DNA of 64,000 nucleotides. It comes from Macrostomum lignano (Eukaryota). A program made the translations under genes and the position numbers. The notes under the pieces were generated by a model. That model did no database searches, was not told the DNA's origin, and saw only the letters and a list, made by a program, of their open reading frames with translations. This document shows positions 5,083 to 48,902 of the stretch, piece after piece (positions within the stretch are counted from its first letter, which is position 1; each line of letters begins with the position of its first letter). The DNA is taken from positions 62,001-126,000 of the forward strand of contig NIVC01000150.1 in the NCBI GenBank assembly GCA_002269645.1, in the 5' to 3' direction.

Positions 5083-7197
5083 CGCGTGGTGCAAGTTGCG
5101 TCACTCAAAAGTCAATACTGCTGAGCTAGAATTTTATACTGCGCACTCTTAAAGGTGGCGATTTTTTATGTTGTTGATAAAATATATCTATACATATAAA
5201 AATCAAAACTCTGTCTGTCTGTCTGTGTGTCTGTGGACATATATATATATAAAGTTTGCGAGTTAATGCAGGAATATGATAATATATTACTGCATAAATG
5301 TATATATGTCGCCGAACTGCTGTCGCCAAATACTGCCGCCGAGTCCAAGCTGTCGCCGAATTAACTGGTTCTCTAGCTAGGCTTCCCCTATGTATTGTCG
5401 CCGAAGTGACTGCATGGTAGCCCTACATGTAATTTAAGCCATTGATCTCTATATATCCATATCCATGCACCTAGCTTGATCCTAACCTCGAATTTATAAC
5501 CCCAAAATAAGTGTGGGGATAATTGCACCTGTGCTTTTCTGAAAAAAAAACAATGAATAGTAATTTTTACAGGAAAAAGTCACTTCGCTTCAACTCTTCC
5601 GCTCTGCAAAGCTTCAACTTGCTCTGGCACCGAAATGTCTAGCGTCTCACGCGGCTTCCCAATATTAGGGCTGCAGTGCATTATAAGAATATTTACTCTA
5701 GGTTCCTCTTAAAGCAGTAAAAACCCCGAATTTCAGACAAAATTGGTTTAAAAGTTATTAGATTTTTTATTTTATTAGCACCAGAACATTCTTAATCTTT
5801 GGTATTATTTTAATTTAGACGTTTGTGAAAAATTATCGTGCAGGGATCACTTGACGATAACAACTTAAGTCGAAGATTTAATATTTTATATTAGTACTTT
5901 AGGCATTCATTTAAAGTGTAGTCTTATTAAATAGGATAAAGTGGTAAAAATATAAGTTACTTAATATAACATTATTCACTCGCTAGCTTCTTAATTTATT
6001 ATTGCACTTCGGTGACTTGCTTTTGTCATGACAATGACAACGCATATTTTATCAACCTTTTCACAATTGTTGGTATGCCTAGCTACTCATTCTAGGGCCT
6101 AGCTAGTGTACTAAAGTGCTCTAGACCTAATGAGACAATGTTACAGTGTAGTGCTTAGCCTTGAGATTCTAGAAAAAAATTAACCTAGTAATTTTGCTTT
6201 TATTTTAATCTTGGAGCTCCTATTCTCACTGTTTTAATGCATTGATTTGATAATGAATTGTATCTTCCAATTATAAAAATCAAGATATCTATATAAATAA
6301 CCTATAAAGTATTAAAGTAATTAGAAGACAGGCAAATTATTATTTTATTTTAAAAGAAGATGCTTATAGAAGTCATTAGCAACAATTCTCTAAAGAGTTT
6401 ATAAATAAATATTATATCAAAGAGGGAACACCAAATTTGAATATTTTCTTTTAAAAGTAGCAAAGCTTAGTATCAGTGAGTATTTAATACTTGCATTAAA
6501 TTATACATATATTAAAAAACTACACTTTTCTTTTTAATATACAGCTTTTCAAGACATATATTATGATAACAAGTGTTAAAAAATTTATTTATTCTACAAA
6601 AAGCTTTTTTCTATAATTATAGTTAAAGATATATAGCATAACTTAATATTATATAAATGTTATACATATAAAATAAGCCTAGGATACATCAAATTGTACA
6701 AAATCAAGAAACTATATCTATCTACTGTTTTTCTGTTCAAATTGTACCAGCATGGCAATATACATAGAAAACATTAATTATTGTTAAACCTATTTCATAT
6801 CATCAACTCAATTTTTATCAAAATCACAAGCATTTTAACTTATACATTGCAGAAAAGTATACAATATATGGAATAAATAGGAATATATATTTCAAGTTGT
6901 TACTGCACCTCTAAACCAGAATATTTTGATATAAAAATTAATTTGCATATGCATTAGCTTATTTTAGATTGATAGACAGGTGCAGATTTTTAATTTCATA
7001 TAATTTGATGCATTTTCATATTGAAAACCTAGCCAATCTAGCTAGGTGACAAGGTAGTCAAGGTCAGGTTATGTTGCAACACTGATACAAAAAATAAATA
7101 AAGAGTTTTAAATAGTCAAGGCCAAAACTAAAGAGAGAGAAGATTTTAATTGAATGCAGAGCAAAGCTTTGTTGCAAAAAGGCTCACTGTGTACAAC

Positions 7198-7835
7198 ACT
7201 ACTATGGACTGGCAGATGGCGCGATTTTGCGAAGGTCCGTCGGGCTGATGTCGGCCTCTAGCACCGCGGCAAGGTGCTCCCTCGGGGTGTACACCCGGGG
7301 TGTACCTCCAGCGGGGTGGGTGTCCAGCGAGTGTACCTCCAGCGGGGTGGGCCTCCCGCGAGTGTACATCCGGCCGGCTGGGCGTCCAGCGAGTGTACCT
7401 TCAGCGCATGGGCCTCCCTCGGGTGTACATCCGGCGGGGGGATTCCCGCCCCTCCCACCAATGTCGTGTGCACGCGGTTAGTGTAGGAAGGAAACCCCCG
7501 ATGCTGACGCAGCCCTGTACACTGAGCAACCGGCCCCCCATGCGGGGGACAGAGAGCAGCCCCTGTAGCAGGAGGGGTAGTGCGTGGAGAGCCGCCATCC
7601 CCCTGTAGCAAGGGACAGATAACAGGCGGCCCCCTGTAGCAGTATGAGGTGGGGTACAAAGAGACACGGGGTGCTGGGACAGAGAGTGCGTGGAGGCACC
7701 CTGCGCTGCCCTGGCATGTCGCAGCACGCGGCGTGGACAGAGAGGGAGTGTGAGTCACACGGAGGGACAGAGAGCTTCCCCAGGCCGGGGTGGTAGAGGG
7801 ACAGACCGGCGGTGAGTGATAGAGAGCCCCCCAGG
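7198..7835 (+). repeat. Left terminal inverted repeat of the virus
   Basis: Reverse complement of 17058-17691 and 18453-19089; contains GTGTAC-core ~31-bp subrepeats and recurring GGGACAGA and CCCCTGTAGCA motifs. Confidence 0.95.
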
Positions 7836-7910
7836 CTGCAGAGGGACAGACAGGCCGCGAGCAACGTGTTAATGCAACCATAAATAGAAGCAGTGTACAA
7901 AACCCTCTGT

Positions 7911-8690
7911 ATGGAGAACATGGAAGAGGGTATAACTGATAACCCCTATTTCAGCAACGAGAGCGTGCGCGCCAGATTACCCCTCATTGAAAGATTGTTA
8001 TCAGACACTAGGAAAAGAATCGAGGGATTGACCGCAAAGGAGCGCTTAGAATTCACGTATCTAGCCCGGCTGGCATTCGTAACTGAAGTAAACATTGAGG
8101 AGAGAGAGGTGGCGTTGACTTGGGAGGAAGCAGAAGAAGCGATAAAAACCCGGTCCTGTATGGTCACAGCCAATCTATGGAGTGCGGCAATACACCTCAA
8201 TGACACGAGGGGGTTAATTGACACAGAGTTTGTTAGACAAGTTCACACACGCGTGTGCAGAGGACTGCTCCCGAATGCAGGATCGTATAGAATTAAGCAC
8301 GCCAAGCCAGCAGGCGCGAGTATGTATTACAGTGCCCCAGAAAATATTGAACGGCAGCTGGTAAAATTAACTAGAGACATAAAAGAGCCACAAATCTTGC
8401 GTGATGCAGTAGTGACAGGAGCATATTTCCTAGAAAAGTTTCTCACCATACACCCCTTTAGCGACGGCAATGGTAGAACTGCTAGGTTGTTATTATCAAA
8501 GTTGATCAACCGGATTCTGCCAGAACCCGTATCATTTGCATACGCAAATAGAGACACATATCTCAACTGTCTTTACGAAGCGCGCAGCAGCAACCGGGGG
8601 CTCCTAGCGGCGTATTTACTTTTATCAATTGAGAGAACCGTTCTACAGTGGAGGGAATGGTTGGAAATCTGTTCAGACGGCAGCCTATAA
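7911..8690 (+). CDS. Fic-domain (AMPylase-type) protein
   Basis: Canonical Fic motif HPFSDGNGRTARLL, upstream G.YR flap region (AGSYRIKHA) and a helix resembling the autoinhibitory segment (EVNIEE). First ATG is 7911; the ORF track starts at GTG 7893. Confidence 0.92.
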   Translation: MENMEEGITDNPYFSNESVRARLPLIERLLSDTRKRIEGLTAKERLEFTYLARLAFVTEVNIEEREVALTWEEAEEAIKTRSCMVTANLWSAAIHLNDTRGLIDTEFVRQVHTRVCRGLLPNAGSYRIKHAKPAGASMYYSAPENIERQLVKLTRDIKEPQILRDAVVTGAYFLEKFLTIHPFSDGNGRTARLLLSKLINRILPEPVSFAYANRDTYLNCLYEARSSNRGLLAAYLLLSIERTVLQWREWLEICSDGSL

Positions 8691-8724
8691 ATAAATAAAA
8701 TTGGTATTTCTCAACAATATCGAA

Positions 8725-9078
8725 ATGTACTGGCAATCGGAAATAGTGTACACCCACGTTGACAACGCAGTGCTGGAAGTGGGATATTGGGACCCAAACA
8801 AACCGCGTTTCCGCATCCACTGTCAAAACTGTAGCTGTCCAGGAGCCGTGTTTAGTCGAGCACAATGGCATCGAATGAAATTTCTGGGCACTAGCTGCAC
8901 AGATTACGATCTCGGAGGCGGCGCATCTATCAAAGTTATCGACGGGAAGCGCCTGTACGTAAAAGGAGACTGCGAATTTCACCTGTCAGACAAAATACTT
9001 TGTGCAGTTGAAAAGAATAGAGTCGACAATTTCTTCCACTATTTCTTTCTCGACGAATCTGACGAGTCAGAGGAATGA
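8725..9078 (+). CDS. Viral hypothetical protein (~117 aa, acidic tail; weak resemblance to PC4/whirly-like ssDNA-binding folds)
   Basis: ATG 40 nt after a TATAAATA motif; stop overlaps the next start (ATGA). The fold guess from LEVGY...FSRAQWHRM is inference only. Confidence 0.65.
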   Translation: MYWQSEIVYTHVDNAVLEVGYWDPNKPRFRIHCQNCSCPGAVFSRAQWHRMKFLGTSCTDYDLGGGASIKVIDGKRLYVKGDCEFHLSDKILCAVEKNRVDNFFHYFFLDESDESEE

Positions 9079-9590
9079 GCTGGATTTCTCGAGACTACCC
9101 GCTTTTATCGAGCAAAGAAAGGGCAGAGTACGAGACCCTGAAAAAGTCCACAGACTGGTTATGCATTTGTCACGGCAAACCAATTCCCGAACGATTAGTC
9201 ACCTTTAATGTCGAGGTAGACGAAATTGGGCAAGGGCCTTACAGCACCCAAGAATATACAGATGCCCGAATTGACTACTACTTTAGAGACAAGATGCATT
9301 TCAAAGCCAATCTTCAAAGAATGGAGCAGATAATTGCCCCAATATTACAAGAGGATCATCGTGAGAAAATACGGTACCGGAATCACCAGCCGATTGCTCC
9401 CTCGTGGACAGAACACCAAAGGATTTGGCGACCTAAACACAGTAGACCAGTGCTAGCGAAGTTGACTATCAACCCTCACTGCAGCTGCATTAACGACACG
9501 CCTCAAACCCCTCGACCAGAAGATCGAAACAAAAGGTTTATTTTTTCCGGATTTCCAACACCGGAAAGTGTCGTTAAAGAAGCACTATAA
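9075..9590 (+). CDS. Viral hypothetical protein (171 aa)
   Basis: Clean ATG-to-stop ORF coupled to the previous gene by an ATGA overlap; has CICH and HCSC motifs; no recognisable family. Confidence 0.65.
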   Translation: MSWISRDYPLLSSKERAEYETLKKSTDWLCICHGKPIPERLVTFNVEVDEIGQGPYSTQEYTDARIDYYFRDKMHFKANLQRMEQIIAPILQEDHREKIRYRNHQPIAPSWTEHQRIWRPKHSRPVLAKLTINPHCSCINDTPQTPRPEDRNKRFIFSGFPTPESVVKEAL

Positions 9591-9681
9591 CAAAAACGCC
9601 CAGCCACCCCACCCTCCGCCCAAGGGTATATAAGGAGGCGCTCAGGGTGTGAGACCCACTCTCAGCAACAGCAGCAGCAAC

Positions 9682-10362
9682 ATGGATACCGTTCAAGACT
9701 ACAATAGTGTTAGGATCGACCTATTCTCTCTCAAGTCGAGAGGTCCAAGCTACAACGGAACCGAGACGTACGACATTGAGTACGACGAACAGGGCCCTCT
9801 CTATCTTGCCAATGCGACGCCCGTACTGATTGTCAAGGGTGTGAGAACCGACAATGAAGGCCGCGAATTCATCATTCTTTCCCAAAAGCACTTGGAGAGC
9901 TGCATACCAGAAGCGTTCAATTCCGTGTGTCACCAGCTCTCTATCCAAGGAATGGCGCTATTGGGGTACAACCCCACTTTTGGCTGCGACAGCGCTGCAT
10001 TCGGATTGGCTCACGACTTTAAAATGTACGACAAGAGCGGCAAGTTGTGCACCGACTACAAGAACAAGACGGGCTACTATAGAGTACTGTTCGCCCTAGA
10101 CACGGCGGTGATTCACGACTCGGTTCTAACCGCGGTACCAAAAATTCAACAACTGCAATTCATAGAAGCTCCCAAGCAGGCGTTTGACCGCTGCTACTGG
10201 ATTCCACCGTTAAAAATCAAGGTAGGACGCAAGCGCGGAGCTGGTGGAGCTGAGCGGAAACAAAAGCAACCGAAAAAACCGCTTGCAGAACGTCGTGTGC
10301 GTAAACAGGGTGTTTTGCGCAAGGTGGAACCACCTACCGAACTTGGACTGGGCGCGCGCTAG
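9682..10362 (+). CDS. Viral hypothetical protein with beta-rich core (possible OB-fold SSB) and basic NLS-like C-terminus
   Basis: GC-box-like tract and TATATAA (9627) precede ATG 9682. The FKMYD..G...YRVLF...KIQQLQF pattern is reminiscent of viral SSBs (inference). The 3' end overlaps the TBP-like frame. Confidence 0.65.
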   Translation: MDTVQDYNSVRIDLFSLKSRGPSYNGTETYDIEYDEQGPLYLANATPVLIVKGVRTDNEGREFIILSQKHLESCIPEAFNSVCHQLSIQGMALLGYNPTFGCDSAAFGLAHDFKMYDKSGKLCTDYKNKTGYYRVLFALDTAVIHDSVLTAVPKIQQLQFIEAPKQAFDRCYWIPPLKIKVGRKRGAGGAERKQKQPKKPLAERRVRKQGVLRKVEPPTELGLGAR

Positions 10363-10762
10363 AACGTTTCATAGACCCCGGGCATTGTACAACCTGAGGA
10401 TCGGAAAGTGTACAATAAACTTTTTCAAACGTTCATTATCTGCCATTGTTTTTGGTTGCCAATCAACCAACGATGTGCTGCGTCTTTTTGCTCAATGTAA
10501 ACCAAACTCTGTTGTTATCACTACCGGTACTTATCGTGCAGAAGTTAATGTTAAGCCAAACTTTTTCCGCCTTGCCAACTCGAGCTCGCGCTGGGTTGAG
10601 TGGGAGAGTGAGGTATTCAATGGGCTTGTAATAAAGTCCCCATTCCGCAAGGCCAAGTGCCTGCTGTGCGGAAAGAATGGTCGGTTAGTGTTCCTAGGAA
10701 TACGAAACTATGACGAACTGTGTAAAATGTACGACCACGTGACTGCTATTCTGCAACTCTAA
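10244..10762 (+). CDS. TATA-binding-protein (TBP)-like two-repeat protein; no in-frame ATG start
   Basis: LQNVVCVN matches TBP LQNIVSTVN; IVFGCQSTND matches VCTGAKSEE; WESEVFNGLVIK...CLLCGKNGRLVFLGIRNYDELCKMYDHVTAIL matches YEPELFPGLIYR...[31 protein letters not shown]. The frame is open from 10226 with no early ATG. Confidence 0.72.
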   Translation: MELSGNKSNRKNRLQNVVCVNRVFCARWNHLPNLDWARARTFHRPRALYNLRIGKCTINFFKRSLSAIVFGCQSTNDVLRLFAQCKPNSVVITTGTYRAEVNVKPNFFRLANSSSRWVEWESEVFNGLVIKSPFRKAKCLLCGKNGRLVFLGIRNYDELCKMYDHVTAILQL

Positions 10763-10800
10763 TTATGCTTTGCTTATAAATAAACAAAATATGCACATGT

Positions 10801-11190
10801 ATGCACGCAATGCTTACCACCTTAATAATGACAAACGGAATTTCTCGTCTTTGTTCTTGCCGTCGCGAGCTAGAGGAGCTCGGTGACGCGCGACCACATC
10901 GAAGGAGGGCCATTATTAGGGGAGCCGATAATGAGTTGATGCAGTGTCTGTGCGAGTTAAGTCACAATGTACTCAAGGGCAATATCGATCTATCCCCTAG
11001 ACAGTTTGCAAGGTTGAAACGTTATAGAGAAGCCCTGCATGACATGGCCGACAAAAAACTGTCTATAAATAGGAAGAAGAATATGATACTATCGGACCCT
11101 CAAGTTGGAGGATTCCTACCAATTCTCGCCAAGATTGCTGCACCGTTAATCACTGGACTGTTTGGTGGTCTGCTAGGACAACGACGTTGA
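10801..11190 (+). CDS. Putative virion core protein, adenovirus pX(mu)-like C-terminus
   Basis: Basic body plus QVGG|FLPILAKIAAPLITGLFGGLL, similar to adenovirus pX (xRGG|ILPLLIPLIAAAIG) after a protease site; TATAAATA at 10775. Confidence 0.75.
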   Translation: MHAMLTTLIMTNGISRLCSCRRELEELGDARPHRRRAIIRGADNELMQCLCELSHNVLKGNIDLSPRQFARLKRYREALHDMADKKLSINRKKNMILSDPQVGGFLPILAKIAAPLITGLFGGLLGQRR

Positions 11191-11192
11191 AA

Positions 11193-11774
11193 ATGGACAA
11201 GTACGTTGTGGTCCCCGAGGAGGAATTCAATCAGCTTAGACAGGGTACTCCGCGAGAAATTGCCCCAAAATCGGAGTACGAAAAACTTGTAGAGTACAAT
11301 GCAAAGCTACAGACCCAATTGGCTAAAGTAAAACCCCAAAAGACGACAAAGCAGCTATTTTCTGATAGGCAACAACGTATATGGAATATACTAACAGAAA
11401 AGCACCCCAGCCTAAATTACAACCAATCGTGGGAAGTCGTTTTTGATGGTGAAACTTGGGGTGGCAGCAACGTTTTTGATCTTCTACAAGCCGTCACCAC
11501 CAACACTAATAATCACCCGAAATATTCGACCGCTTTCTGGGCTCTGCTAGACAAGGCCCGTATACCAATGTCTATGCTCGGTCGGAAACAGCTCCCTGTG
11601 GAGGAAAAGAAGGTTGACCATATGGTTGGTACCGATGATTACCGCGATGAATATGAGCACACAATTGCGACAGACACCCGCGATTTAACGACCACGCGCA
11701 ACAAAGGTGTAAATGCTATGCCCAACTTGTGGATCAAGGTGCCGGGATGGGTAAATATCACGATTACCAACTAA
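11193..11774 (+). CDS. Conserved Polinton/adintovirus hypothetical protein
   Basis: MDKYVVVP start and ...EVVFDGE...GSNVFDLL...P...F...L....IP pattern that I recognise from Polinton accessory ORFs; tightly coupled to the upstream stop. Confidence 0.6.
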   Translation: MDKYVVVPEEEFNQLRQGTPREIAPKSEYEKLVEYNAKLQTQLAKVKPQKTTKQLFSDRQQRIWNILTEKHPSLNYNQSWEVVFDGETWGGSNVFDLLQAVTTNTNNHPKYSTAFWALLDKARIPMSMLGRKQLPVEEKKVDHMVGTDDYRDEYEHTIATDTRDLTTTRNKGVNAMPNLWIKVPGWVNITITN

Positions 11775-11946
11775 GACCGCCCCGGAACCGAAAATACGAT
11801 ACTCTTTATAAATAGAACCCTAATCCATACATAACCGCGCCCGGCGGTCATGGGCGCAGCAGCCGCCGCATCAAAGCTTTGTGTAGACAACTCCCCAGCC
11901 GACATTACGTGCAACTATTCATGCTGTGCATCCACACTTGTTGTCA

Positions 11947-13026
11947 ATGAGGGCTCTAACCGCTCTTCGTCGAGTTTACGAACAAGGAGCCGCCGCTTTT
12001 TCAAATGCTGCCCGTGTCTATCAGGAGGCCAAACGTCTGGCGCCAAACCTGACAAGACGCCAAACCAGGGAATGGCTAGAAACCCAACCGAGTTACACCC
12101 GTCACCGGAGAGTCAACAGGACATTTAAAACGGGAAAAGTAATGTCGGGAGGATTCATGGAAACTCTACAAGCCGATTTGATGGACATGTCGCGATACAA
12201 ACGTTGGAATGACGGACATAAATATATACTAGTTGTTATTGATGTGCTTAGTAAGCAGGCTTTTTGTAGGGCAATTAAACTAAAGAGTGATACCCCCGCA
12301 GCGTTTGAGTCAATGTTGGCGAATGATTTCCCTGCCCGCCCCCTTTACCTGCACGTGGATCGGGGTACCGAGTTTTATAATCAGCGAATGCGCCGCATAC
12401 TAAAAGACAATAATGTTAAAATGTACAGCACCAACTCTGTGTACAAGGCAAACATGGCCGAGAGGCTGATTAGAACTCTTCGAAAGCGTCTGGCTCGCTA
12501 CTTTGAGCACAACAACACGTGGCGTTGGGTTGACTACTTACCCAATTTGGTAGGTAATTACAACAACACGACGCATTCTACTATTGAGATGAAACCGTCA
12601 AGTGTAGGGTTCCACAATCAGAAGCGTGTGTGGGAAAAGCTCTACCCGGATCAGCAAAAAGACGACCCCGTATATAAAAAGGGGGATTTTGTGAGAATTT
12701 CGAAATCTCGCCGGGCATTCGACAAGGAGGCGTACGACATGTATAGTGAGGAGGTGTACATTATATCCAAAGTTTGTCCTGGACCCCCACATTTTTATCG
12801 TATTTCTGATTTGTCTGGTGAAGTGATTGAGGGACGGTTTTACTACAATGAACTGTCCAAATCTACCCGACCCGAGCGTTTTGTAATCAATAAAGTTTTG
12901 CGTAGAAACGTGTTAATAAATGGTGTTGCGCACCATTACGTTAGCTGGCGCGGTTATCCCGACACTTTTAATTCATTTGTACCTGTAAATGAAGTTATAA
13001 ATATACGTCAACGTAATAATAACTAA
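11947..13026 (+). CDS. Retroviral-like DDE integrase with C-terminal chromodomain (Polinton c-INT)
   Basis: LQADLMDM...KYILVVIDVLSK (D), LHVDRGTEF (D), MAERLIRTL (E); C-terminal VSWRGYPDTFNSFV chromo-like motif; consistent with the 6-bp TSD. Confidence 0.95.
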   Translation: MRALTALRRVYEQGAAAFSNAARVYQEAKRLAPNLTRRQTREWLETQPSYTRHRRVNRTFKTGKVMSGGFMETLQADLMDMSRYKRWNDGHKYILVVIDVLSKQAFCRAIKLKSDTPAAFESMLANDFPARPLYLHVDRGTEFYNQRMRRILKDNNVKMYSTNSVYKANMAERLIRTLRKRLARYFEHNNTWRWVDYLPNLVGNYNNTTHSTIEMKPSSVGFHNQKRVWEKLYPDQQKDDPVYKKGDFVRISKSRRAFDKEAYDMYSEEVYIISKVCPGPPHFYRISDLSGEVIEGRFYYNELSKSTRPERFVINKVLRRNVLINGVAHHYVSWRGYPDTFNSFVPVNEVINIRQRNNN

Positions 13027-13029
13027 TGC

Positions 13030-14168
13030 ATGGCTACCATGCATCTCTTTCTGCCTAGCAATGCGTGCCCCGAGCACTATCCCGAAAATAATCCGGCTCA
13101 TTATTTTATTAATTTACCGGACACTCTCCACTTTCCGAATCATGAGGTTTGCCTCGAACGGATCTACTTTACCAAAGAATTTGAATCTTTCAAAAAATCT
13201 ATACCGATCACCATTCGCGAACAGGAGGGCCTCTTGACGGCTTCGTCGTTTGCAAACCTTTGTCTCGCAGCGGGTCTGAAAACCCCTGAAGAATGTATTT
13301 CCGGCTTTCTAAACGGTATCCGATACGTTGAAGGGGATAATAAGAAAATTGTCTTTTTAAGAACATCCCCAACCGCCTTTATGATTGTGAATACTTCAAA
13401 ATCCACTGTCGGCATCAAATTCCCGGATACCCTACCCAAGGTGTTTAAACTAGTCGCCGGCTTCGAGTCTAATGAGGATCTACCTACTGAACTCGTATTA
13501 CACGCGGGGTGTGCAGCCTCCATCACCGCAGTTGTTGAGGAACCGACTGTGCAGTCAATGGACCATGCTCCAATAATAAGACAAGTTACTAGCGCAGCGT
13601 CTGATCAAATCTATTTTATGCAGGGTGGATACTATAGTACACCTAAAAGAATGGTGGAGGAACTCAACAATTTAATTTGGAAACGGATCAAAGATCTCAT
13701 AGCGGCTCCAGCACCTAGAACGGACTTTTTCGGATACAGCGAAGTTACGAATAGGTGTTATTACATTGGCTCGATGGATTACATGTTTGGGCTGGGGCGC
13801 TTGACCGGCATGCTTGGTTTCCCAGAGCATGATTATACAACCCCATTTTTCGGTATATCGGACTTTGGGCAGCCACATCAATGGAATTAACCGGTGGAAT
13901 ACAAACAATGTACATCTATTCGAGCATAGTCGATTCTGTTATTGTAGGAGACGTTAAAGTTCCTCTGTTGGGAGCTATACCGATGGATCCCAAAGTTCAG
14001 GGCGGTCGCGAGTACTACGAGTTTGTCAATCCGGCATATCTACCGCTGGTTAAGCACCCATTCAAAACTATTGAAGTACAAATTAACGATGATATGGGCA
14101 GGGATATGACAAAAGTAATGAGGGGCAAGACCGTCTTGAGCGTTAACATCCGCGAAAAGAAGCTATAA
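13030..14168 (+). CDS. Penton / minor capsid protein, split by a 1-nt frameshift near 13846-13850
   Basis: N-terminus FLPSN...YPENN...F.INLP..L...EVCL and C-terminus MYIYSSIV...VGDVKVPLL...Y.PL...FKTIEVQI are the two halves of the Polinton penton. Adding one T to the T5 run at 13846-13850 joins ORFs 13030-13890 and 13881-14168. Confidence 0.85.
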
Positions 14169-14211
14169 ATAAACAGCACAGCCTCAGTAAACTATATCCT
14201 AGTGCTTAATC

Positions 14212-14556
14212 ATGCCTTCTATTCTGATTGGTGGAGCTTTGCCTGTTTTCGCGGGCGCCCAGAGGGGCAACGGTTTGTTTGGAAGCATTGCCCGCTTCGC
14301 GCTGCCAATTCTAAAGAGTTTTGGTAAAAACGTTCTCCGTCATGGTACTAGAGCCCTAGCAACTACTGTTAACGATAGCCTCGAGCAAGGAGGCAATTTG
14401 AAGGAGTCTGTCCTGCGCAATTCTGTTCAGGCTGCCAAGGACGCCTTTAAAGACACGGTTACCCAAAGGGGTAGCGGACGAAGAAGAAAAAAGGCTCCGA
14501 AGCGTCTCAATTCAGACATTTTCAGCACTATAAATAAAAAGCCCCGCTTCAATTAG
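14212..14556 (+). CDS. Small protease-processed virion protein (adenovirus pVI/pVII-like)
   Basis: LIGG|A, QRGNG and QRGSG motifs; amphipathic LFGSIARFALPILKSFGK helix; basic RRRKK tail; lies directly before the MCP. Confidence 0.72.
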   Translation: MPSILIGGALPVFAGAQRGNGLFGSIARFALPILKSFGKNVLRHGTRALATTVNDSLEQGGNLKESVLRNSVQAAKDAFKDTVTQRGSGRRRKKAPKRLNSDIFSTINKKPRFN

Positions 14557-14585
14557 ATTCGCCGAATCGAGTCTGTCTACTAAAC

Positions 14586-15869
14586 ATGTCCGAGTGTCTG
14601 TGTACAAAGTCCGAGTTTGAGCTCTTTGCCCCTCGAGCCCACCAGATTGCCGCTGTAGGTTCAACTACTGAAGAAATCCACCCGGTTGCCAGCGTCGAAA
14701 ATGCGAGTGTGGTTGAGTTTAGAATTGTGGGCGGCGAGACGTTTGTCGATCTTAATGACATTGATCTCGAGATTAAAGGTTGTATTAAAAGAGCTAATGG
14801 AGCCGATTTGGCGGCGGATTCAAACGTGGCGCCAATCAATTACCTCTTGGAGACCATGTTCAAAAACGTGTCTCTTTCCATAAATGGTACACATATCGAG
14901 TCTAGCAACAACAACCATGCCTACAAGGCGTACATTCGTACATGCTTGAGTTATGGGTCTGATTCAAAGTCTAACCAACTGCGGATGATGGGCTACGCTA
15001 AAGACGCTGGGGGTCAAATGGCTGCGGTTGGAAATCCTGGCTTTGTAACTCGCAAGGCGATGGCTGCCGGTTCTCGAACATTTCACCTGTATGGCCCTCT
15101 TAGTCTCGACTTTTTTGTCACCAACGATCGTATGCTGCTACCCTACACTGATATGGTGGTTACGCTCACTCTGCAAAATTCGGGATTCGTTGTAGAGAAT
15201 CACGCCGAAGGGGTTGATGCAAAGTTGGTTCTTCAAAGTGCAAAATTACACGTTCGTCGGGTAAAGGCTAACCCCCAACTGGCCTTGGAGATTGAAGAAC
15301 AGCTGGCAACTCAGAATGCAGTCTACCCCATCGAGCGCCTCGTTGTACACAACACCTCTGTCGCTGTAGGAGTTCGCGACGTGTCAATCAATAATATTTT
15401 CCCGGAGCAGAAGCCTAAACTTGTCATTATGGGGATGGTAAATAGTGCCGCATATAACGGGGTGGCTACCCATAATCCGTTCAATTTCGAGCCATTTGGG
15501 GCTGACAGTGTGGCCCTGTACAAGGACGGTGTCAGTCTGTGCGGTCAACCATTCACTCCAAGGTTCGCTGCCCAAAACTATGCTCGCGAATACGCCATGC
15601 TGTTTAAGAGCCTAGGGAAAATGAATCGCGATTTGGACATTGACCTGTCATATTCGGATTATCGCGCCGGTTACTGCTTATTTGCGTGGAATCTAATGCC
15701 CGATATGGAACTGGGTGGACATAGCATGCCTCGCGAGAGAGGGAATCTGACCCTACAGATAAAGTTTTCTGCAGCCCTACCTGCCGGGATTAACGTTTTG
15801 GTGTTTGGTTACTTTGACAACGCGGTGCAAATCACTAGAGGCCGCCAGCCCATTCTGGACTACGTATGA
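14586..15869 (+). CDS. Double jelly-roll major capsid protein (hexon/PY)
   Basis: 427 aa; EC..KSEFELF N-terminus, YPIER, NPFNF and GYCLFAWNL.PD motifs typical of Polinton MCPs; position between core protein and protease. Confidence 0.93.
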   Translation: MSECLCTKSEFELFAPRAHQIAAVGSTTEEIHPVASVENASVVEFRIVGGETFVDLNDIDLEIKGCIKRANGADLAADSNVAPINYLLETMFKNVSLSINGTHIESSNNNHAYKAYIRTCLSYGSDSKSNQLRMMGYAKDAGGQMAAVGNPGFVTRKAMAAGSRTFHLYGPLSLDFFVTNDRMLLPYTDMVVTLTLQNSGFVVENHAEGVDAKLVLQSAKLHVRRVKANPQLALEIEEQLATQNAVYPIERLVVHNTSVAVGVRDVSINNIFPEQKPKLVIMGMVNSAAYNGVATHNPFNFEPFGADSVALYKDGVSLCGQPFTPRFAAQNYAREYAMLFKSLGKMNRDLDIDLSYSDYRAGYCLFAWNLMPDMELGGHSMPRERGNLTLQIKFSAALPAGINVLVFGYFDNAVQITRGRQPILDYV

Positions 15870-16303
15870 ACACGTTGGAAATTTTGGAGTGTTTAAAACT
15901 ACCTGTGGAAGTGCACGTTTGCCCTCTCGACAGAATTCCTGCACCTGTTTACCCTGCTGCATATGTAATTAATTTTGACACGGGTAATCTGCCAGGCACC
16001 CACTGGGGACTGATTTGCCTACACGATGATAAGAGTGTGACATTTTTTGACCCTCTGTGTATTGAACCCGTGCCGGAATTGCTCTCGGCTTGGATCTCGA
16101 AGCATGTACATTCACCTGTTGCTATGAATCGCCACCCTGTTCAACACCCTCTAAGTGTAGCGTGTGGGCCGCATGTGATTTTTGTGGCCGAAAAGCACTT
16201 TTTAGAGGGGTTGTCGATTGAAAAGATTTTAAGGGAATGTTACTCTACCAATCTGCTTGAAAATGATTTGATGGTTCGAAAACATGTTCTACAAATAAAA
16301 TAG
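15866..16303 (+). CDS. Adenain/Ulp1-type maturation cysteine protease
   Basis: INFD...PGTHW (His), FFDP (Asp), QHPLSVACG (Gln/Cys) in catalytic order. Confidence 0.93.
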   Translation: MNTLEILECLKLPVEVHVCPLDRIPAPVYPAAYVINFDTGNLPGTHWGLICLHDDKSVTFFDPLCIEPVPELLSAWISKHVHSPVAMNRHPVQHPLSVACGPHVIFVAEKHFLEGLSIEKILRECYSTNLLENDLMVRKHVLQIK

Positions 16304-16337
16304 TTTTTAATATTTGGAGTGTCAACTCGCCCTGAAA

Positions 16338-16966
16338 ATGTACCAAACAATTGATCCTGACGCTCTAAAGTTTGCTCCAAATACTTCGGCGATTTTTGCT
16401 GGTGTTAACCAGAGCGGAAAAACAACTCTTGTTAAAGAATTGCTGCGAAACGAGTTTTTTCAGGACCCTAAGCCTGTTCGCGTTGATTGGTTTGGGCACT
16501 ATCCAGACCCGGAACTGTTTGAATTACCGTACCCTGTCAATTTTCGCTCGTCTACATTTAACCCTGAAACCTATGTTCCCGCTCCGAATATTCTATCGTT
16601 GTCGATGATCAAATGCAAGCCATGGAAAAAAACGCTGCTTTTACCGCATTTTTCACTCGCAAAGTCAGCCATGTGGGATTCCGGCTTTGGTACCTTGTAC
16701 AAAACCTGTTTGCCAAGGGCAAGGAGCACCGCACTCAATCCCTTAACGCAAACTACCTTGTATTGTTCCGCAATGTACGGGACGTTAGTACAGTCGCCCA
16801 TATTGCAAAGCAGCTTGTCCCCGCTAACCCAAAAAGTTTTGTTCAAATGTACGAAGACGCCACTAGGGAGCCCTACTCCTACTTGATTGTTAATTGCTTG
16901 CAGAACGCATCTGTTCGCTACTATGCTAATGTGTTGGGGCGCTACCCCGTAGTTTATGCTAAATAA
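16338..16966 (+). pseudogene. A32/FtsK-like packaging ATPase, copy 1, with a 1-bp deletion at ~16596
   Basis: Otherwise matches copy 2, but reads ATTCTATCGTT instead of ATTCTATTCGTT, splitting the ORF at Walker B; either a real lesion or a sequencing error. Confidence 0.85.
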
Positions 16967-17057
16967 AACACTGTTGGAGAGCTTTGCTCTGTTTGCCGGA
17001 TGGCCTGAACCTGAAACAACTAAAATACGTGTTTTTTCTTTTCAAGTCCTCTACTGC

Positions 17058-17691
17058 CCTGGGGGGAGCTCTCTATCACTCACCGCCGGTCTGTCCCTCT
17101 ACCACCCCGGCCTGGGGAAGCTCTCTGTCCCTCCGTGTGACTCACACTCCCTCTCTGTCCACGCCGCGTGCTGCGACATGCCAGGGCAGCGCAGGGTGCC
17201 TCCACGCACTCTCTGTCCCAGCACCCCGTGTCTCTTTGTACCCCACCTCATACTGCTACAGGGGGCCGCCTGTTATCTGTCCCTTGCTACAGGGGGATGG
17301 CGGCTCTCCACGCACTACCCCTCCTGCTACAGGGGCTGCTCTCTGTCCCCCGCATGGGGGGCCGGTTGCTCAGTGTACAGGGCTGCGTCAGCATCGGGGG
17401 TTTCCTTCCTACACTAACCGCGTGCACACGACATTGGTGGGAGGGGCGGGAATCCCCCCGCCGGATGTACACCCCGAGGGAGGCCCATGCGCTGAAGGTA
17501 CACTCGCTGGACGCCCAGCCGGCCGGATGTACACTCGCGGGAGGCCCACCCCGCTGGAGGTACACTCGCAGGACACCCACCCCGCTGGAGGTACACCCCG
17601 GGTGTACACCCCGAGGGAGCACCTTGCCGCGGTGCTAGAGGCCGACATCAGCCCGACGGACCTTCGCAAAATCGCGCCATCTGCCAGTCCA
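17058..17691 (-). repeat. Internal right TIR copy (terminus identical to the left TIR but missing the last 7 nt)
   Basis: Ends ...cgcaaaatcgcgccatctgccagtcca and joins directly to a copy of 16297 onward. Confidence 0.92.
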
Positions 17692-17731
17692 AAATAGTTT
17701 TTAATATTTGGAGTGTCAACTCGCCCTGAAA

Positions 17732-18361
17732 ATGTACCAAACAATTGATCCTGACGCTCTAAAGTTTGCTCCAAATACTTCGGCGATTTTTGCTGGTGTT
17801 AACCAGAGCGGAAAAACAACTCTTGTTAAAGAATTGCTGCGAAACGAGTTTTTTCAGGACCCTAAGCCTGTTCGCGTTGATTGGTTTGGGCACTATCCAG
17901 ACCCGGAACTGTTTGAATTACCGTACCCTGTCAATTTTCGCTCGTCTACATTTAACCCTGAAACCTATGTTCCCGCTCCGAATATTCTATTCGTTGTCGA
18001 TGATCAAATGCAAGCCATGGAAAAAAACGCTGCTTTTACCGCATTTTTCACTCGCAAAGTCAGCCATGTGGGATTCCGGCTTTGGTACCTTGTACAAAAC
18101 CTGTTTGCCAAGGGCAAGGAGCACCGCACTCAATCCCTTAACGCAAACTACCTTGTATTGTTCCGCAATGTACGGGACGTTAGTACAGTCGCCCATATTG
18201 CAAAGCAGCTTGTCCCCGCTAACCCAAAAAGTTTTGTTCAAATGTACGAAGACGCCACTAGGGAGCCCTACTCCTACTTGATTGTTAATTGCTTGCAGAA
18301 CGCATCTGTTCGCTACTATGCTAATGTGTTGGGGCGCTACCCCGTAGTTTATGCTAAATAA
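17732..18361 (+). CDS. A32/FtsK-like DNA packaging ATPase, intact copy 2
   Basis: Walker A GVNQSGKT, Walker B LFVVDD, and QNLF..GK..RT.SLNANYLVLFRN.RD A32 motif. Confidence 0.94.
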   Translation: MYQTIDPDALKFAPNTSAIFAGVNQSGKTTLVKELLRNEFFQDPKPVRVDWFGHYPDPELFELPYPVNFRSSTFNPETYVPAPNILFVVDDQMQAMEKNAAFTAFFTRKVSHVGFRLWYLVQNLFAKGKEHRTQSLNANYLVLFRNVRDVSTVAHIAKQLVPANPKSFVQMYEDATREPYSYLIVNCLQNASVRYYANVLGRYPVVYAK

Positions 18362-18452
18362 AACACTGTTGGAGAGCTTTGCTCTGTTTGCCGGATGGCC
18401 TGAACCTGAAACAACTAAAATACGTGTTTTTTCTTTTCAAGTCCTCTACTGC

Positions 18453-19089
18453 CCTGGGGGAGCTCTCTATCACTCACCGCCGGTCTGTCCCTCTACCACC
18501 CCGGCCTGGGGAAGCTCTCTGTCCCTCCGTGTGACTCACACTCCCTCTCTGTCCACGCCGCGTGCTGCGACATGCCAGGGCAGCGCAGGGTGCCTCCACG
18601 CACTCTCTGTCCCAGCACCCCGTGTCTCTTTGTACCCCACCTCATACTGCTACAGGGGGCCGCCTGTTATCTGTCCCTTGCTACAGGGGGATGGCGGCTC
18701 TCCACGCACTACCCCTCCTGCTACAGGGGCTGCTCTCTGTCCCCCGCATGGGGGCCGGTTGCTCAGTGTACAGGGCTGCGTCAGCATCGGGGGTTTCCTT
18801 CCTACACTAACCGCGTGCACACGACATTGGTGGGAGGGGCGGGAATCCCCCCGCCGGATGTACACCCCGAGGGAGGCCCATGCGCTGAAGGTACACTCGC
18901 TGGACGCCCAGCCGGCCGGATGTACACTCGCGGGAGGCCCACCCCGCTGGAGGTACACTCGCTGGACACCCACCCCGCTGGAGGTACACCCCGGGTGTAC
19001 ACCCCGAGGGAGCACCTTGCCGCGGTGCTAGAGGCCGACATCAGCCCACCTCACCTCCAAAATCAAGCCATCTGCCGTTGCTTAGTAGT
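18453..19089 (-). repeat. Outer right TIR with variant terminal ~45 bp, abutting the TSD
   Basis: Matches the left TIR up to GGGCTGATGTCGGC; spacers between conserved terminal blocks differ; ends TAGTAGT|TACAAC. Confidence 0.93.
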
Positions 19090-19210: not shown

Positions 19211-19651
19211 ATGTCGACCACTCCAGGCCAGTCCAACTCCGTTTCAATCGAGCAAACAGAGGAGGCCAAATTAAAACAAAAATATCCGAATTTGAATCGC
19301 AAAAGCATTGGCAGCTCCGTGCTGCACAAGCGGCTGAACAATAAAGGTCAGAAATATTTTGACAGCGGCGACTACAACATGGCCAAGGCTAAGGTAGTCG
19401 GCGCTCACCGGGCTCCCACCAGGGGCTCCGATCTGCTGGACACCGCCACAGGCGACACCATGGCAACGCCGGAAAGTGTGCCAGCTGTACGCAAGAAATC
19501 TCTAGTTGGCGGCCTTGACCCGCTGCTGCCGCCTCAGCAATTGCTGCAACCGCAGCAGCTGCAGCAGCAGCAGCACCGGAAGCCGTCCATCGCTTGCACA
19601 GAAGACGACCCCATGGCTATTGGCCGGCCAATTGTGCAATCAGATCAGTGA
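19211..19651 (+). CDS. ENSA: Endosulfine-alpha / ARPP-19 family PP2A-B55 inhibitor
   Basis: KQKYPNL...LHKRL...QKYFDSGDYNMAKAK Greatwall-site motif; splice acceptor TTTCAG at 19195-19200 just upstream. Confidence 0.92.
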   Translation: MSTTPGQSNSVSIEQTEEAKLKQKYPNLNRKSIGSSVLHKRLNNKGQKYFDSGDYNMAKAKVVGAHRAPTRGSDLLDTATGDTMATPESVPAVRKKSLVGGLDPLLPPQQLLQPQQLQQQQHRKPSIACTEDDPMAIGRPIVQSDQ

Positions 19652-27321: not shown

Positions 27322-29077
27322 TCAGTCACTGTCGCATTCCGATGTTGAAGAACCGTCGGTTGAAGCCGCCACCACTGCGGGAGCGGCGGCGGCTTCGACA
27401 GGGGCAGCGTCAGCCTCGGAGTCTCCAATGGAGCCGCCGCTAAGCAAGCTGGTGTAGCAACTCGAACAGATCCGCTGAGGCTTCTTACTCTGAGCAGGCA
27501 GCAGCCACTTCCTGTTGGAGCACGACTGGCACACCAGGTGGCCGCAGCGACGGCAGTGGTGCTGAGGATAGACAGGGCCAGGTGCCAGACTCCGGTGGGA
27601 TTTTGGGGGAGAGGATTATGGGTGGGTAGGGAGAGGATTCAGGGTGGGTAGGGAGAGGCTTCAGGGTGGGTAGGGAGAGGATTCAGGGTGGGTAGGGAGA
27701 GGCTTCAGGGTGGGTAGGGAGAGGATTCAGGGTGGGTAGGGAGAGGCTTCAGGGTGGGTAGGGAGAGGATTCAGGGTGGGTAGGGAGAGGATTTAGGGTG
27801 GGTAGGGAGAGGATTCAGGGTGGGTAGGGAGAGGATTTAGGGTGGGTAGGGAGAGGATTCAGGGTGGGTAGGGAGAGGATTCAGGGTGGGTAGGGAGAGG
27901 ATTCAGGGTGGGTAGGGAGAGGATTCAATGTGGGTAGGGAGAGGATTTAGGGTGGGTAGGGAGAGGATTCAGGGTGGGTAGGGAGAGGATTCAGGGTGGG
28001 TAGGGAGAGGATTCAGGGTGGGTAGGGAGAGGATTCAGGGTTAGTAGGGAGTGGATTCAAGGTGGGTAGGGAGAGGATTCAGGGTGGGTAGGGAGAGGAT
28101 TCAGGGTGGGTAGGGAGAGGATTCAGGGTGGGTAGGGAGAGGATTCATTGTGGGTAGGGAGAGCATTCAGGGTGGGTAGGGAGAGGATTCCGGGTTAGTA
28201 GGGAGTGGATTCAATGTGGGTAGGGAGAGGATTTAGGGTGGCTAAGAGGATTAACAATACAGCGAGCTTGTGCCGATAAGAAAGCGAATTAGTGTGGCAA
28301 GCAATCGGTTCCCCCATCCCCAGCTGACTCACCCGCCTGTTAATGACGGTAAAAGAAGCGGAGCAGAGCATGCATTTCTGCTGAGCCTTGTCCGGGATCC
28401 AGACTGGCGCTACTTCGGCAGCTGAGGCAGCTTGAGCCACGTCCCTGTGCTCTGTGCAGTCCTTGGCGTACTTGTTGATGTACTCTACCCACTTGGACGC
28501 CTCCAGCGAAGTGTTAGTGTACACTGTGAACGACTTCTTTGGCGAGATCACCTGCGGCATTGAGAAAGAGCGAGATAAGAGCTGGAAAAGATAAGCCGCC
28601 TGCAGAAGCATAACAGATTTGAAGCTTGAAATATGACTTGGGTCAAATGTTCTCACGGGTTGAAAAGCATTTACCCTAGCATACCGGAATGTGAAAATGC
28701 TATGCTAAACACAATCTAGAATTGTTGGCCATGTAGGTTTTGAGTGGAATGCAAAGGGAAGGAGAAAGTGGTAGGATTGATAGAGATAAACAGAAAGACA
28801 GAAAGAGACAGACAGACACTAAGACAGACAGACAGACACTTAGACAGAGAGACAGACAGACACTAAGATAGACAGACACTAAGACAGACAGACAGACAGG
28901 CAAACAGACAGACAGACAGAGAGACGGACAGACACTTAGACAGACAGACAGACACTAAGACAGACAGACAGACACTAAGACAGACAGACAGACACTAAGA
29001 CAGACAGACAGACAGGCAAACAGACAGACAGACAGACAGACAGAGAGACAGACAGACAGGCAAACAGACAGACAGAC

Positions 29078-29110
<33 letters not shown>

Positions 29111-29522
29111 GGCAAACAGACAGACACACGGACAGACCTGAAAACCTTTCTCCTCCTGCGTAAGCTGGGCCCGAACATCGTCCAGCTCGATGATCTGCTG
29201 CTTGGTGTACTTCTTCTTACTGATAACAATGTTGCCGTACACCAGCAGGTCGTTAAACAGAAAGAATTGTCGTTTTTTAGGCCGCTTGCGGCACACCTTG
29301 AGCAGGACGCCCTCAGCGATGAGCACTCGGCCAGTGCGCAGCAGCGGAATGCCGCTGTCGCCAAAGCACTGCTCGATGGTGCTGATGCGGGACACATTCA
29401 GGTCACTGGTTGCTAAGGTGAAAAGTTAACAAAAAATGCTTTCCACAGGAATCTATCCGAGATTAAAACGTATTTTCATAAGGATAAAACTTACAGAGTC
29501 TGAACAAATTGGCTGACGACAT
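27322..29522 (-). CDS. PLEKHF2: Phafin2-like PH + FYVE domain protein (4 coding exons)
   Basis: Exons 29522-29495, 29412-29138, 28551-28333 and 27561-27322 join in frame with GT/AG. Motifs: [10 protein letters not shown]...[16 protein letters not shown]...[11 protein letters not shown] (PH); WIPD...CMLC...[15 protein letters not shown] (FYVE). Confidence 0.93.
27615..28245. repeat. 22-bp G-rich intronic minisatellite
   Basis: GGGTGGGTAGGGAGAGGATTCA units inside PLEKHF2 intron 3. Confidence 0.92.
28790..29135. repeat. (AGAC)n microsatellite
   Basis: Begins immediately after the exon-2 donor of PLEKHF2. Confidence 0.9.
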
Positions 29523-48400: not shown

Positions 48401-48902
48401 GGAGGTGCAGTTCATAAACATCAAAGCTCTGAACGAGTTCGACCCGCGCGTGCCGGGCGCCGTTGACTGGCGCAGCAAGATGGACTCGCAGCGGGGAGCC
48501 GTGCTGGCCGCCGAGCTTAAGAACAACGCCTTCAAGCTGGCCAAGTGGACGGTCTGTTCGCTGTTGGCCGGCTCAGACCAGCTCAAGCTGGGCTACGTGT
48601 CCCGCGTGAACCCCAAGGACTCCAGCAAGCACGTGATCCTGGGCACCCAGCAGTTCAAGCCGAACGAGTTCGCCTCCCAGATCAATCTGTCCATGGAGAA
48701 CTGCTGGGGCATTTTCAAGTGCTTGGTGAACACCCTGATGGACAGGCCCAACGGCAAGTACCTGGTGTTGAAGGATCCCAACAAGCAGATGATTCGGCTG
48801 TACGACATTCCTAACAACTCCTTCGAGTCGGACGACGAGGACGAAGAAGGCGACGACGGCCAAGACGAGGACGACGAGCGCGACGGCGACGGCAGCGATT
48901 GA
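36461..48902 (+). CDS. EIF3D: Eukaryotic translation initiation factor 3 subunit D (5 coding exons)
   Basis: Exons 36461-36601, 42423-42468, 42554-43031, 47086-47617 and 48390-48902 join in frame. Motifs: [61 protein letters not shown]. Confidence 0.96.
38775..38848 (+). pseudogene. Short decayed 28S rRNA fragment (helix 69-71 region)
   Basis: GGTAAACGGCAGGAGTAACTATGAC...AGCTAAATGCCTCGCCAGCTAATCAGTG versus eukaryotic 28S GGTAAACGGCGGGAGTAACTATGACTCTCTTAAGGTAGCCAAATGCCTCGTCATCTAATTAGTG. Confidence 0.8.
39290..39930. repeat. CT-rich then GA-rich low-complexity tract
   Basis: Polypyrimidine 39290-39730 followed by polypurine 39790-39930. Confidence 0.8.
40185..40400. repeat. ~21-bp TTTGCGACTTACCTAATCCT array
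   Basis: Visible tandem units; GCGACTTA also occurs at 38715-38750 and 40510. Confidence 0.8.
43085..43435. repeat. 30-bp minisatellite, resumed at 46983-47030 after a transposon
   Basis: ACTGAGTGACTGTCACTGATAGCTGAGTCC units on both sides of the insertion. Confidence 0.9.
43436..46982. mobile_element. Non-autonomous DNA transposon with CCC termini and 2-bp TSD (CMC/EnSpm-like)
   Basis: TIR CCCGTCGAAC(G/T)TTTCACCCGGAATTT at both ends; TG duplicated; dense CCGGA subterminal repeats (120-bp units left, ~30-bp units right); no transposase ORF. Superfamily assignment is inference. Confidence 0.8.
45368..45726 (+). CDS. Possible small two-exon coiled-coil ORF inside the transposon
   Basis: GT-AG intron 45414-45529 joins ...[31 protein letters not shown] in frame; function unknown. 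Confidence 0.35.
47720..48260. repeat. 23-bp minisatellite filling EIF3D intron 4
   Basis: TCCTGAAGTTTTAGCTGTCTCAA units. Confidence 0.9.

What the first reader, a model, noticed from the sequence alone, without database searches (positions are those of the whole stretch)
7198..19089. Capsid-complete, integrase-positive but polymerase-less Polinton/adintovirus-like virus: candidate helper-dependent (satellite) element
Seen: both TIRs, a 6-bp TSD, the full morphogenesis set (MCP, penton, protease, ATPase, two core proteins) and integrase, all on one strand. Genes abut or overlap, with only ~75 bp after the left TIR and ~90 bp before the right TIR. No pPolB, terminal protein, helicase or primase ORF or remnant is visible on either strand. 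Established: Polintons/adintoviruses are defined by pPolB; short terminal repeats like ACTACT are the type used for slide-back protein priming in adenovirus and phi29. Inference: a streamlined ~10.5-kb lineage that borrows pPolB in trans or uses host replication, with the freed space filled by Fic, TBP-like and unknown genes.
Basis: partly seen in the sequence, partly recalled or inferred. Interest (0 to 1): 0.92.

Follow-up and report, generated by a model that had tools for sequence, protein, structure and literature searches.

The report
Polinton virus split into complementary segments
This flatworm element carries the capsid and integrase genes of a Polinton virus but no polymerase, while a separate element in the same genome carries the polymerase but no capsid or integrase and has the same DNA ends, so the two look like halves of one segmented virus.

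Summary
Confirmed and extended. It is a multi-copy family: 14 of 17 end-paired siblings are 10.35-10.74 kb, none holds a pPolB hit, and 9 of 9 copies with both ends readable have different exact 6-bp TSDs. A sister family (MCP 87-88%, dS near saturation, dN/dS 0.04-0.11 in most genes) also lacks pPolB, so this is no single-locus deletion. The partner was found: ~9.4-kb elements with the same end motif carry an intron-split pPolB but no capsid or integrase, yet the one read in full sits in a 6-bp TSD. Eight of 18 hypervariable end alleles are shared exactly between the two classes; this copy's distal end is 45 nt identical to a polymerase element's end; and the sister capsid family pairs with a second polymerase family with its own end type (predicted, then found). 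Best reading (0.7): a bipartite Polinton whose segments complement each other in trans. A third ~9 kb class with the same ends is unexplained. No virions, free DNA or expression shown. No such system found in ten literature searches.

The parts
7192..7197 (.). Left copy of the 6-bp target-site duplication
   Evidence: empty-site allele with one copy in runs X3 and X11
7198..7844 (+). Left TIR; begins (ACT)2, hypervariable block at positions 8-25, internal 31-bp repeats
7911..8690 (+). Fic-domain protein, 259 aa (accessory; not seen in the sister-family arm L037)
   Evidence: Pfam Fic E 6.6e-14
8725..9078 (+). Unknown ORF, 117 aa (PC4-like look is recall only, no hit)
   Evidence: no hit
9075..9590 (+). 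Unknown ORF, 171 aa, conserved in the sister family
   Evidence: 68% aa over 98 codons, dN/dS 0.07
9601..9635 (+). 35-nt GC-rich plus TATA motif, the only internal sequence shared with the polymerase element
   Evidence: 31 of 35 nt, E 1e-6
9682..10362 (+). Unknown ORF, 226 aa (SSB-like look is recall only; no polymerase or helicase motif)
   Evidence: 4 homologs at 46-56%; fold pLDDT 42, no match
10226..10762 (+). TBP-like frame, no ATG at its start, overlaps the 226-aa ORF
   Evidence: dN/dS 0.09
10801..11190 (+). 129-aa protein, putative core protein; conserved in complete Polinton-like relatives
   Evidence: dN/dS 0.06
11193..11774 (+). 193-aa protein upstream of integrase; weakly conserved in relatives
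   Evidence: 4 of 24 long loci hit
11947..13026 (+). rve integrase, 359 aa
   Evidence: Pfam rve E 1.9e-9
13030..14168 (+). Putative penton/minor capsid protein, split into two frames near 13870 in this copy
14212..14556 (+). 114-aa basic protein, putative core protein
   Evidence: 87% aa to sister family
14586..15869 (+). [quoted passage not shown]
15866..16303 (+). Adenain/Ulp1-like cysteine protease, 145 aa
   Evidence: Pfam C48 E 0.06; position in relatives
16338..16966 (+). Packaging ATPase, first copy, broken by a frameshift near 16595
17048..17694 (-). Right TIR, inner copy, lacking its last few bases at the duplication junction
17691..19089 (+). Tandem duplicate (1394 bp) of ATPase plus right TIR; specific to this copy among those read; not verified in reads
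17732..18361 (+). Packaging ATPase, second copy, 209 aa, Walker A
18457..19089 (-). Right TIR, outer copy
19045..19089 (-). Hybrid end: 45 nt identical to the end of polymerase element L036
19090..19095 (.). Right copy of the target-site duplication

Best explanation
The element is the capsid/integrase segment of a segmented (at least bipartite) Polinton-like virus of the flatworm Macrostomum lignano. A second, ~9.4-kb linear segment encodes the protein-primed polymerase (with an N-terminal region where Polinton pPolBs carry the terminal protein) but no capsid or integrase. Both segments carry the same outer ~32-bp end. Shown: reciprocal gene content, shared and exchanged ends, independent integration of both with 6-bp TSDs, two matched capsid/polymerase pairs. 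Inferred: pPolB from segment 2 initiates on and copies both segments; integrase from segment 1 integrates both; capsid proteins and ATPase of segment 1 package both (all classes are 8-11 kb); ends are swapped when displaced strands of different segments pair at their shared termini during co-replication.
For: Capsid family: 17 end-paired copies, 14 of 10.35-10.74 kb, none overlapping a pPolB hit; 0 pPolB hits in 30 capsid-element sequences; 9 of 9 readable TSDs exact and different. Polymerase family: 13 of 36 end-paired elements among the first 100 of 155 listed ends hold a pPolB hit, 11 of the 13 are 9.38-9.71 kb; none of the 36 overlaps an MCP or integrase hit; L036, read in full, has TIRs, a 6-bp TSD, pPolB in five exons with catalytic motifs, about 3 kb left over with three small ORFs, and no match to any of the 14 capsid-segment proteins. 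Ends: 8 of 18 distinct 18-nt alleles (24 of 46 capsid ends) occur exactly among 99 listed polymerase-type ends (hand count) although the TIRs are unrelated further in (20 of 100 nt); this copy's distal end is 45 nt identical to L036. Second pair: sister capsid family (9 paired copies, 9.8-10.9 kb) has ACTACGTA-type ends; I predicted the same ends for the second polymerase family (61-67% aa) and found them. Capsid copies have discordant left/right alleles in 5 of 17 pairs against 0 of 36 polymerase-type pairs (p 0.002, copies not fully independent), as expected if they receive ends in trans. Purifying selection between the two pPolB-less families. Distant Polinton-like loci of the genome on contigs fully listed (6 MCP, 14 pPolB loci) do not have these ends nearby, apart from one nested inside a polymerase-type interval.
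Against: All evidence is genomic: no virion, free linear DNA, transcript or biochemistry. Only one polymerase element was read in full, one end of a second-family one, and one left arm of the sister capsid family; the rest rests on hit coordinates from searches that scored only the best candidates (91 of 974, 98 of 451, 113 of 1545, 142 of 157). The hybrid end and the duplication junction were not seen in the listed read contigs. In the second pair 0 end alleles match exactly (4 pairs differ by 1 nt), many second-family loci have no listed end, and the sister capsid family shares its next 27 nt with the first polymerase family, so pairing is not clean. The nearest complete relatives of the capsid block carry a polymerase of another class than L036, so simple fission of one ancestor is not shown. 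23 of 36 polymerase-type pairs have no pPolB hit, and one 21-kb element with such ends (C106) holds a distant integrase (36%) and was not read.
Confidence: 0.7

Rival explanations
1. One-way dependence: the capsid element multiplies without pPolB (integrase-driven cut-and-paste with host gap repair, or host replication), and the polymerase element is a linear-plasmid-like parasite that mimics its ends to use its integrase and capsid.
For: Shared ends are needed for integrase recognition alone; polymerase-type ends outnumber capsid ends 155 to 46; the pPolB is of another class than that of the capsid block's relatives; no replication assay exists.
Against: Capsid genes stay under purifying selection, which implies amplified free genomes, and host polymerases cannot copy linear ends (established knowledge); end alleles appear to flow into capsid copies; repeated (ACT)2 tips are the slide-back type (recalled).
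Confidence: 0.15
2. Both classes are independent non-autonomous satellites of a complete helper Polinton or exogenous virus with the same ends that is absent from, or unrecognised in, the assembly.
For: Complete Polintons exist in this genome (MCP 30-33% next to pPolB on C4619, C4948, C4976); the 21-kb C106 element is unread; searches scored only part of their candidates; about 12 ends of other subtypes were never listed.
Against: No copy with this MCP carries pPolB; both halves keep intact, selected genes that a helper would make redundant; two matched pairs exist; C106 has a TIR of the third class; no loose ends or joints pointing to a longer version among those listed for four runs (presence-only data).
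Confidence: 0.1
3. Decaying deletion derivatives of one Polinton, or assembly artefacts, with no present function.
For: Many copies have frameshifts; this copy has a local duplication; some siblings are allelic duplicates of one site.
Against: Different TSDs, uniform sizes, polymorphic insertion (empty allele in 2 of 4 runs), near-saturated dS with low dN between two pPolB-less families, unrelated inner TIRs with identical outer ends.
Confidence: 0.05

Closest known systems
Polintons/Mavericks/adintoviruses (Polintoviricetes)
   Same: DJR MCP, putative penton, protease, ATPase, rve integrase, long TIRs, 6-bp TSD; gene block matches complete relatives at 28-41% MCP identity.
   Different: pPolB and integrase are on different elements; each is about 9.5-10.5 kb; pPolB has four GT-AG introns; tips read (ACT)2 where vertebrate Mavericks have 5'-(AGT)2 (PMC8097293, passage); ends are hypervariable and exchanged.
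Bidnaviruses (Bombyx mori bidensovirus) and Drosophila Vesanto virus
   Same: Segmented linear genomes with TIRs, a Polinton-derived pPolB on only some segments, shared terminal sequence (PMC4061559, PMC8363768; passages).
   Different: Those are ssDNA viruses with a parvovirus-type capsid and no integrase; here a DJR capsid module, integrase and integrated copies of every segment.
Tlr1 elements and PLVs without pPolB
   Same: Capsid genes, and for Tlr1 rve integrase, without canonical pPolB (PMC11161782, passages); some PLVs lack any detectable replicase or integrase.
   Different: Tlr1 and most PLVs carry another replicase in cis; none is reported with a dedicated polymerase partner sharing its ends.
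Transpovirons and mobile replicase modules
   Same: Capsid-less replicons that depend on another virus; replicases proposed to move as separate elements (bioRxiv 10.64898/2026.10.13.758929, section 13 read).
   Different: That text pairs pPolB consistently with a DDE integrase in the same module; here the polymerase element has none, and its partner lacks a replicase.
Complementing gag-only and pol-only LTR retrotransposon families of cereals (recalled, not searched)
   Same: Two semi-autonomous elements that each supply what the other lacks.
   Different: RNA-based retroelements; no protein-primed DNA replication.

Membership tests
Polinton/Maverick/adintovirus | pPolB encoded in the element | tested here: not met
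   supplied by a separate element
Polinton/Maverick/adintovirus | rve integrase | tested here: met
Polinton/Maverick/adintovirus | Double-jelly-roll MCP | tested here: met
Polinton/Maverick/adintovirus | Penton, protease, packaging ATPase | tested here: inconclusive
   weak Pfam C48, Walker A, and matching position in relatives; no folds run
Polinton/Maverick/adintovirus | Long TIRs and 6-bp TSD | tested here: met
PLV / Tlr1 | Alternative replicase (helicase, primase, PolA, pPolB-helicase fusion) in cis | tested here: not met
   unknown ORFs are 117-226 aa, no Walker A or polymerase motif, no Pfam or PHROG hit; three ORFs remain unidentified
Bidnaviridae / Vesanto-like | Segmented genome with common terminal sequence and pPolB on one segment | tested here: met
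   at the level of integrated copies
Bidnaviridae / Vesanto-like | Parvovirus-type single-jelly-roll capsid and SF3 helicase | tested here: not met
   MCP is DJR; no helicase
Bidnaviridae / Vesanto-like | ssDNA packaged in virions | not testable with these tools
   no virion data
Satellite of an autonomous helper | An autonomous helper with matching ends exists | tested here: inconclusive
   none among ends listed; 55 polymerase-type ends unlisted and C106 unread
Virophage | Dependence on a giant virus | not tested
   no search for a giant virus in this host

The most novel reading that the evidence does not exclude
A multipartite, integrating, double-jelly-roll dsDNA virus of an animal: capsid/integrase, polymerase and at least one further ~9-kb segment class, each packaged separately, each integrating on its own, held together by shared, rapidly diversifying terminal sequences that are exchanged between segments and sort them into compatibility groups.
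Probability: 0.35. Interest if true: 0.97.

Novelty: categorically new. Interest (0 to 1): 0.92.

Why it matters
Polintons are defined by pPolB plus integrase in one element, and surveys select on that linkage (the nematode survey kept only pPolB genes linked to integrase), so split systems would be missed or filed as debris. A segmented genome in a double-jelly-roll virus was not found in my ten searches. It gives a concrete intermediate for polymerase exchange between Polintons and for the origin of segmented pPolB viruses such as bidnaviruses. The host is a laboratory animal with polymorphic insertions, so the open questions of whether animal Polintons make virions and what pPolB and integrase recognise at the ends become testable: matched and mismatched end types are a natural specificity series. 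The parts are known; the architecture is what is new, and a conservative reader may call it a new variant of Polintons.

Tried and rejected
Single-locus deletion: rejected. Extra DNA in three siblings is not pPolB: a P-element-type transposase in C4, no frame over 98 aa in C2210 and none over 60 aa in the C355 part. Hidden replicase among unknown ORFs: no hit in Pfam, PHROGs, PDB sequence, ESM Atlas or Foldseek; the 226-aa model was too poor to use (pLDDT 42), so SSB and PC4 resemblances stay recall. IMG/VR scan found no relative. None of 24 long metagenome loci shows a TIR pair, so the split layout is not shown outside this host; MCPs at 80-81% and 226-aa homologs at 46-56% exist in other data sets but their context could not be read. 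Expression: no RNA holder listed; runs guessed as RNA also cover the flank, so no verdict; summed contig depth (inside about 57-130 against 9 in the flank for X1) is not used as copy number. The duplication junction and hybrid end were not among the listed pieces: no verdict. Family-by-end-type Fisher tests are not used, because copies are kin. No tree was built: no adequate reference set, and the two polymerase classes barely align. Earlier findings: three look-ups returned nothing. A search for literature on adenovirus end conversion gave nothing usable, so that mechanism is recalled.
Full report
Observation. The element starts at 7198 and ends at 19089 between two copies of TACAAC. The TIR is about 640 bp. 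The right 1394 bp (ATPase plus TIR) are duplicated in tandem, so the unit is 10.5 kb; none of the siblings read shows this duplication. All genes lie on the plus strand: Fic, three unknown ORFs, a TBP-like frame, two small proteins, integrase, putative penton, a basic protein, MCP, protease, ATPase. The MCP folds as a double jelly roll. No frame has polymerase size or motifs, and the only Walker A is in the ATPase. Two of four sequencing runs hold the empty site with one TACAAC and one bridges the left junction, so the insertion is real and polymorphic. Polymerase proteins 97% identical to the partner element are labelled Macrostomum lignano in UniRef.

A lineage, not a deletion. The MCP search listed 15 full-length matches at 99-100%, 16 at 87-88% and 16 at 30-33%, the rest partial (101 matches; 98 of 451 candidates scored). 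Fourteen siblings were aligned to the window and are colinear over the parts fetched; some are allelic copies of one site. Nine of nine copies with both ends readable (of ten tested, the window included) have exact and different 6-bp TSDs. Of 17 end-paired siblings, 14 are 10.35-10.74 kb; two longer ones carry insertions unrelated to pPolB and one (C56) is unread. The 87-88% family has 9 end-paired copies of 9.8-10.9 kb; the one left arm read has the same genes without Fic and no pPolB. Between the families pS is 0.60-0.90; dN/dS is 0.04-0.11 in five segments, 0.28 in the variable penton part, and dS is saturated in three. The pPolB-less state is therefore old and under selection.

The partner. 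The ends read ACTACTA, 18 variable bases, then a fixed 7-mer. This pattern occurs 226 times (control 4): 46 of capsid type and 155 of a second type. Among the first 100 listed second-type ends, 36 form pairs; 13 enclose a pPolB hit, and 11 of these are 9.38-9.71 kb. None of the 36 overlaps a listed MCP or integrase hit. One was read in full (L036): TIRs of about 880 bp, a 6-bp TSD, a pPolB in five exons with GT-AG borders and catalytic motifs, three small ORFs in about 3 kb, and no similarity to any capsid-segment protein. An element with a Polinton-type TSD and no integrase needs one in trans, as the capsid element needs a polymerase.

Links between the two. Beyond about 32 nt the TIRs are unrelated (20 of 100 nt identical), yet 8 of 18 distinct end alleles of the capsid class, covering 24 of its 46 ends, occur letter for letter among 99 listed polymerase-type ends (hand count). 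The distal end of this very copy is identical to the L036 end for 45 nt, including 13 nt specific to the polymerase class, and then continues as capsid TIR. Left and right alleles differ by two or more bases in 5 of 17 capsid pairs and 0 of 36 polymerase-type pairs. The only internal shared sequence is a 35-nt TATA-containing motif in front of a gene on each element, which may coordinate transcription (inference). The pPolB search shows a second family at 61-67%. Since the sister capsid family has ACTACGTA ends, I predicted the same for this polymerase family, fetched one end and found it; 31 such ends exist and six pairs enclose its pPolB (one with a one-base variant tip). Against a clean picture: no allele is shared exactly in this second pair (four differ by one base), many of its loci have no listed end, and the sister capsid family carries 27 nt of the first polymerase family's sub-terminus.

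Mechanism. Shown: reciprocal gene content, independent integration, shared and exchanged ends, two pairs. From established knowledge: Polinton pPolBs carry the terminal protein at their N-terminus (PMC11161782, passages), and pPolB and DDE integrase are thought to act on the same end sequence (bioRxiv 10.64898/2026.10.13.758929, passage). Inferred: the polymerase segment primes and copies both molecules; the capsid segment integrates and packages both; strand displacement lets ends of different segments pair and convert one another (adenovirus-type end repair, recalled). The like size of all classes fits a capsid of fixed capacity (inference). Confidence 0.7; one-way dependence 0.15; unseen complete helper 0.1; decay or artefact 0.05.

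Origin. Of 80 metagenome loci with related MCPs, the 24 of at least 5.5 kb show the same block of ATPase, small proteins, integrase, penton, MCP and protease (ATPase 22 of 24, integrase 22 of 24). Ten of 13 examined have an adjacent 790-1350 aa frame with a DTDS motif, linked to one another by phmmer, one with a Pfam pPolB hit; none scores against the annotated protein matching L036. So the capsid block descends from ordinary Polintons, while the partner polymerase is of the other class. Either fission followed polymerase replacement, as seen in nematode Polintons (10.1101/2023.08.22.554363, passages), or a foreign replicon was recruited; I cannot tell which.

Unexplained. Sixteen of the 36 pairs are 8.1-9.9 kb with no pPolB, MCP or integrase hit. 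One shares the outer 165 nt of the polymerase TIR (93%) and then diverges; 501 and 351 bases from the middles of two of them match no class read. The 21-kb C106 element has this third TIR type and holds a distant integrase. These are further segments or cargo-filled derivatives. The block-mosaic variability of the ends is also unexplained.

Comparison and novelty. Each element alone fails the Polinton definition (PMC5499653, start of abstract in listings; PMC11296320, passages); together they meet it. The organisation works like that of bidnaviruses and Vesanto virus (passages) but capsid type and integrase exclude membership. Ten searches of the open library and passages of PMC8502044, PMC11131425, PMC8097293, 10.1101/2022.07.12.499685 and 10.64898/2026.06.19.733378 gave no segmented or mutually complementing Polinton and no account of Polintons in this host. 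I read no supplements; subscription journals and repeat databases were not searchable and may hold the separate families. Verdict: real, reader supported and extended; interest 0.92.

Noticed in passing
G000:C436:114944-124196, C625, C106 and 14 similar intervals (L119-L122): Third class of ~8-10 kb elements with the same ends, a related but distinct TIR and unknown interior; no pPolB, MCP or integrase hit.
   Followed up: partly
L036:3957-8248: The pPolB gene has four GT-AG introns, one filled with direct repeats; the capsid segment's genes appear intronless.
   Followed up: partly
window 10226-10762 and L037:3610-4200: The TBP-like frame has no ATG at its start in either family and overlaps the upstream ORF; splicing, frameshifting or a non-AUG start is likely. 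Several late genes are preceded by a TATAAATA motif (D10).
   Followed up: partly
G000:C201:682626-684005: A polymerase-type element shows two identical right ends 1348 bp apart, much like the 1394-bp terminal duplication in the window; terminal duplications may be a recurring replication product.
   Followed up: no
G000:C1485:44228-62496 and C271:276939-317558: Nested elements: one second-family polymerase element inside another, and a distant pPolB inside a first-family interval.
   Followed up: no
G000:C168, C670, C1597, C347, C900, C1242, C1300: Mini-elements of 0.5-4 kb with paired ends, probable non-autonomous derivatives.
   Followed up: no
L033:2755-5700: A P-element/THAP9-type transposase of 981 aa inserted in the right TIR of one sibling.
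   Followed up: yes
G000:C4619, C4948, C4976: Apparently complete Polintons (pPolB frames up to 1478 aa within 10 kb of a 30-31% MCP) coexist in the genome.
   Followed up: no
window 19211-19651: Host endosulfine/ARPP19-like ORF 115 bp past the element, single-exon in appearance (Pfam E 1e-7).
   Followed up: no
window 42538-48902 and 28195-29425: Exons resembling eIF3 subunit D and a PH-FYVE protein (recalled resemblance); the rest of the window is rich in tandem repeats.
   Followed up: no
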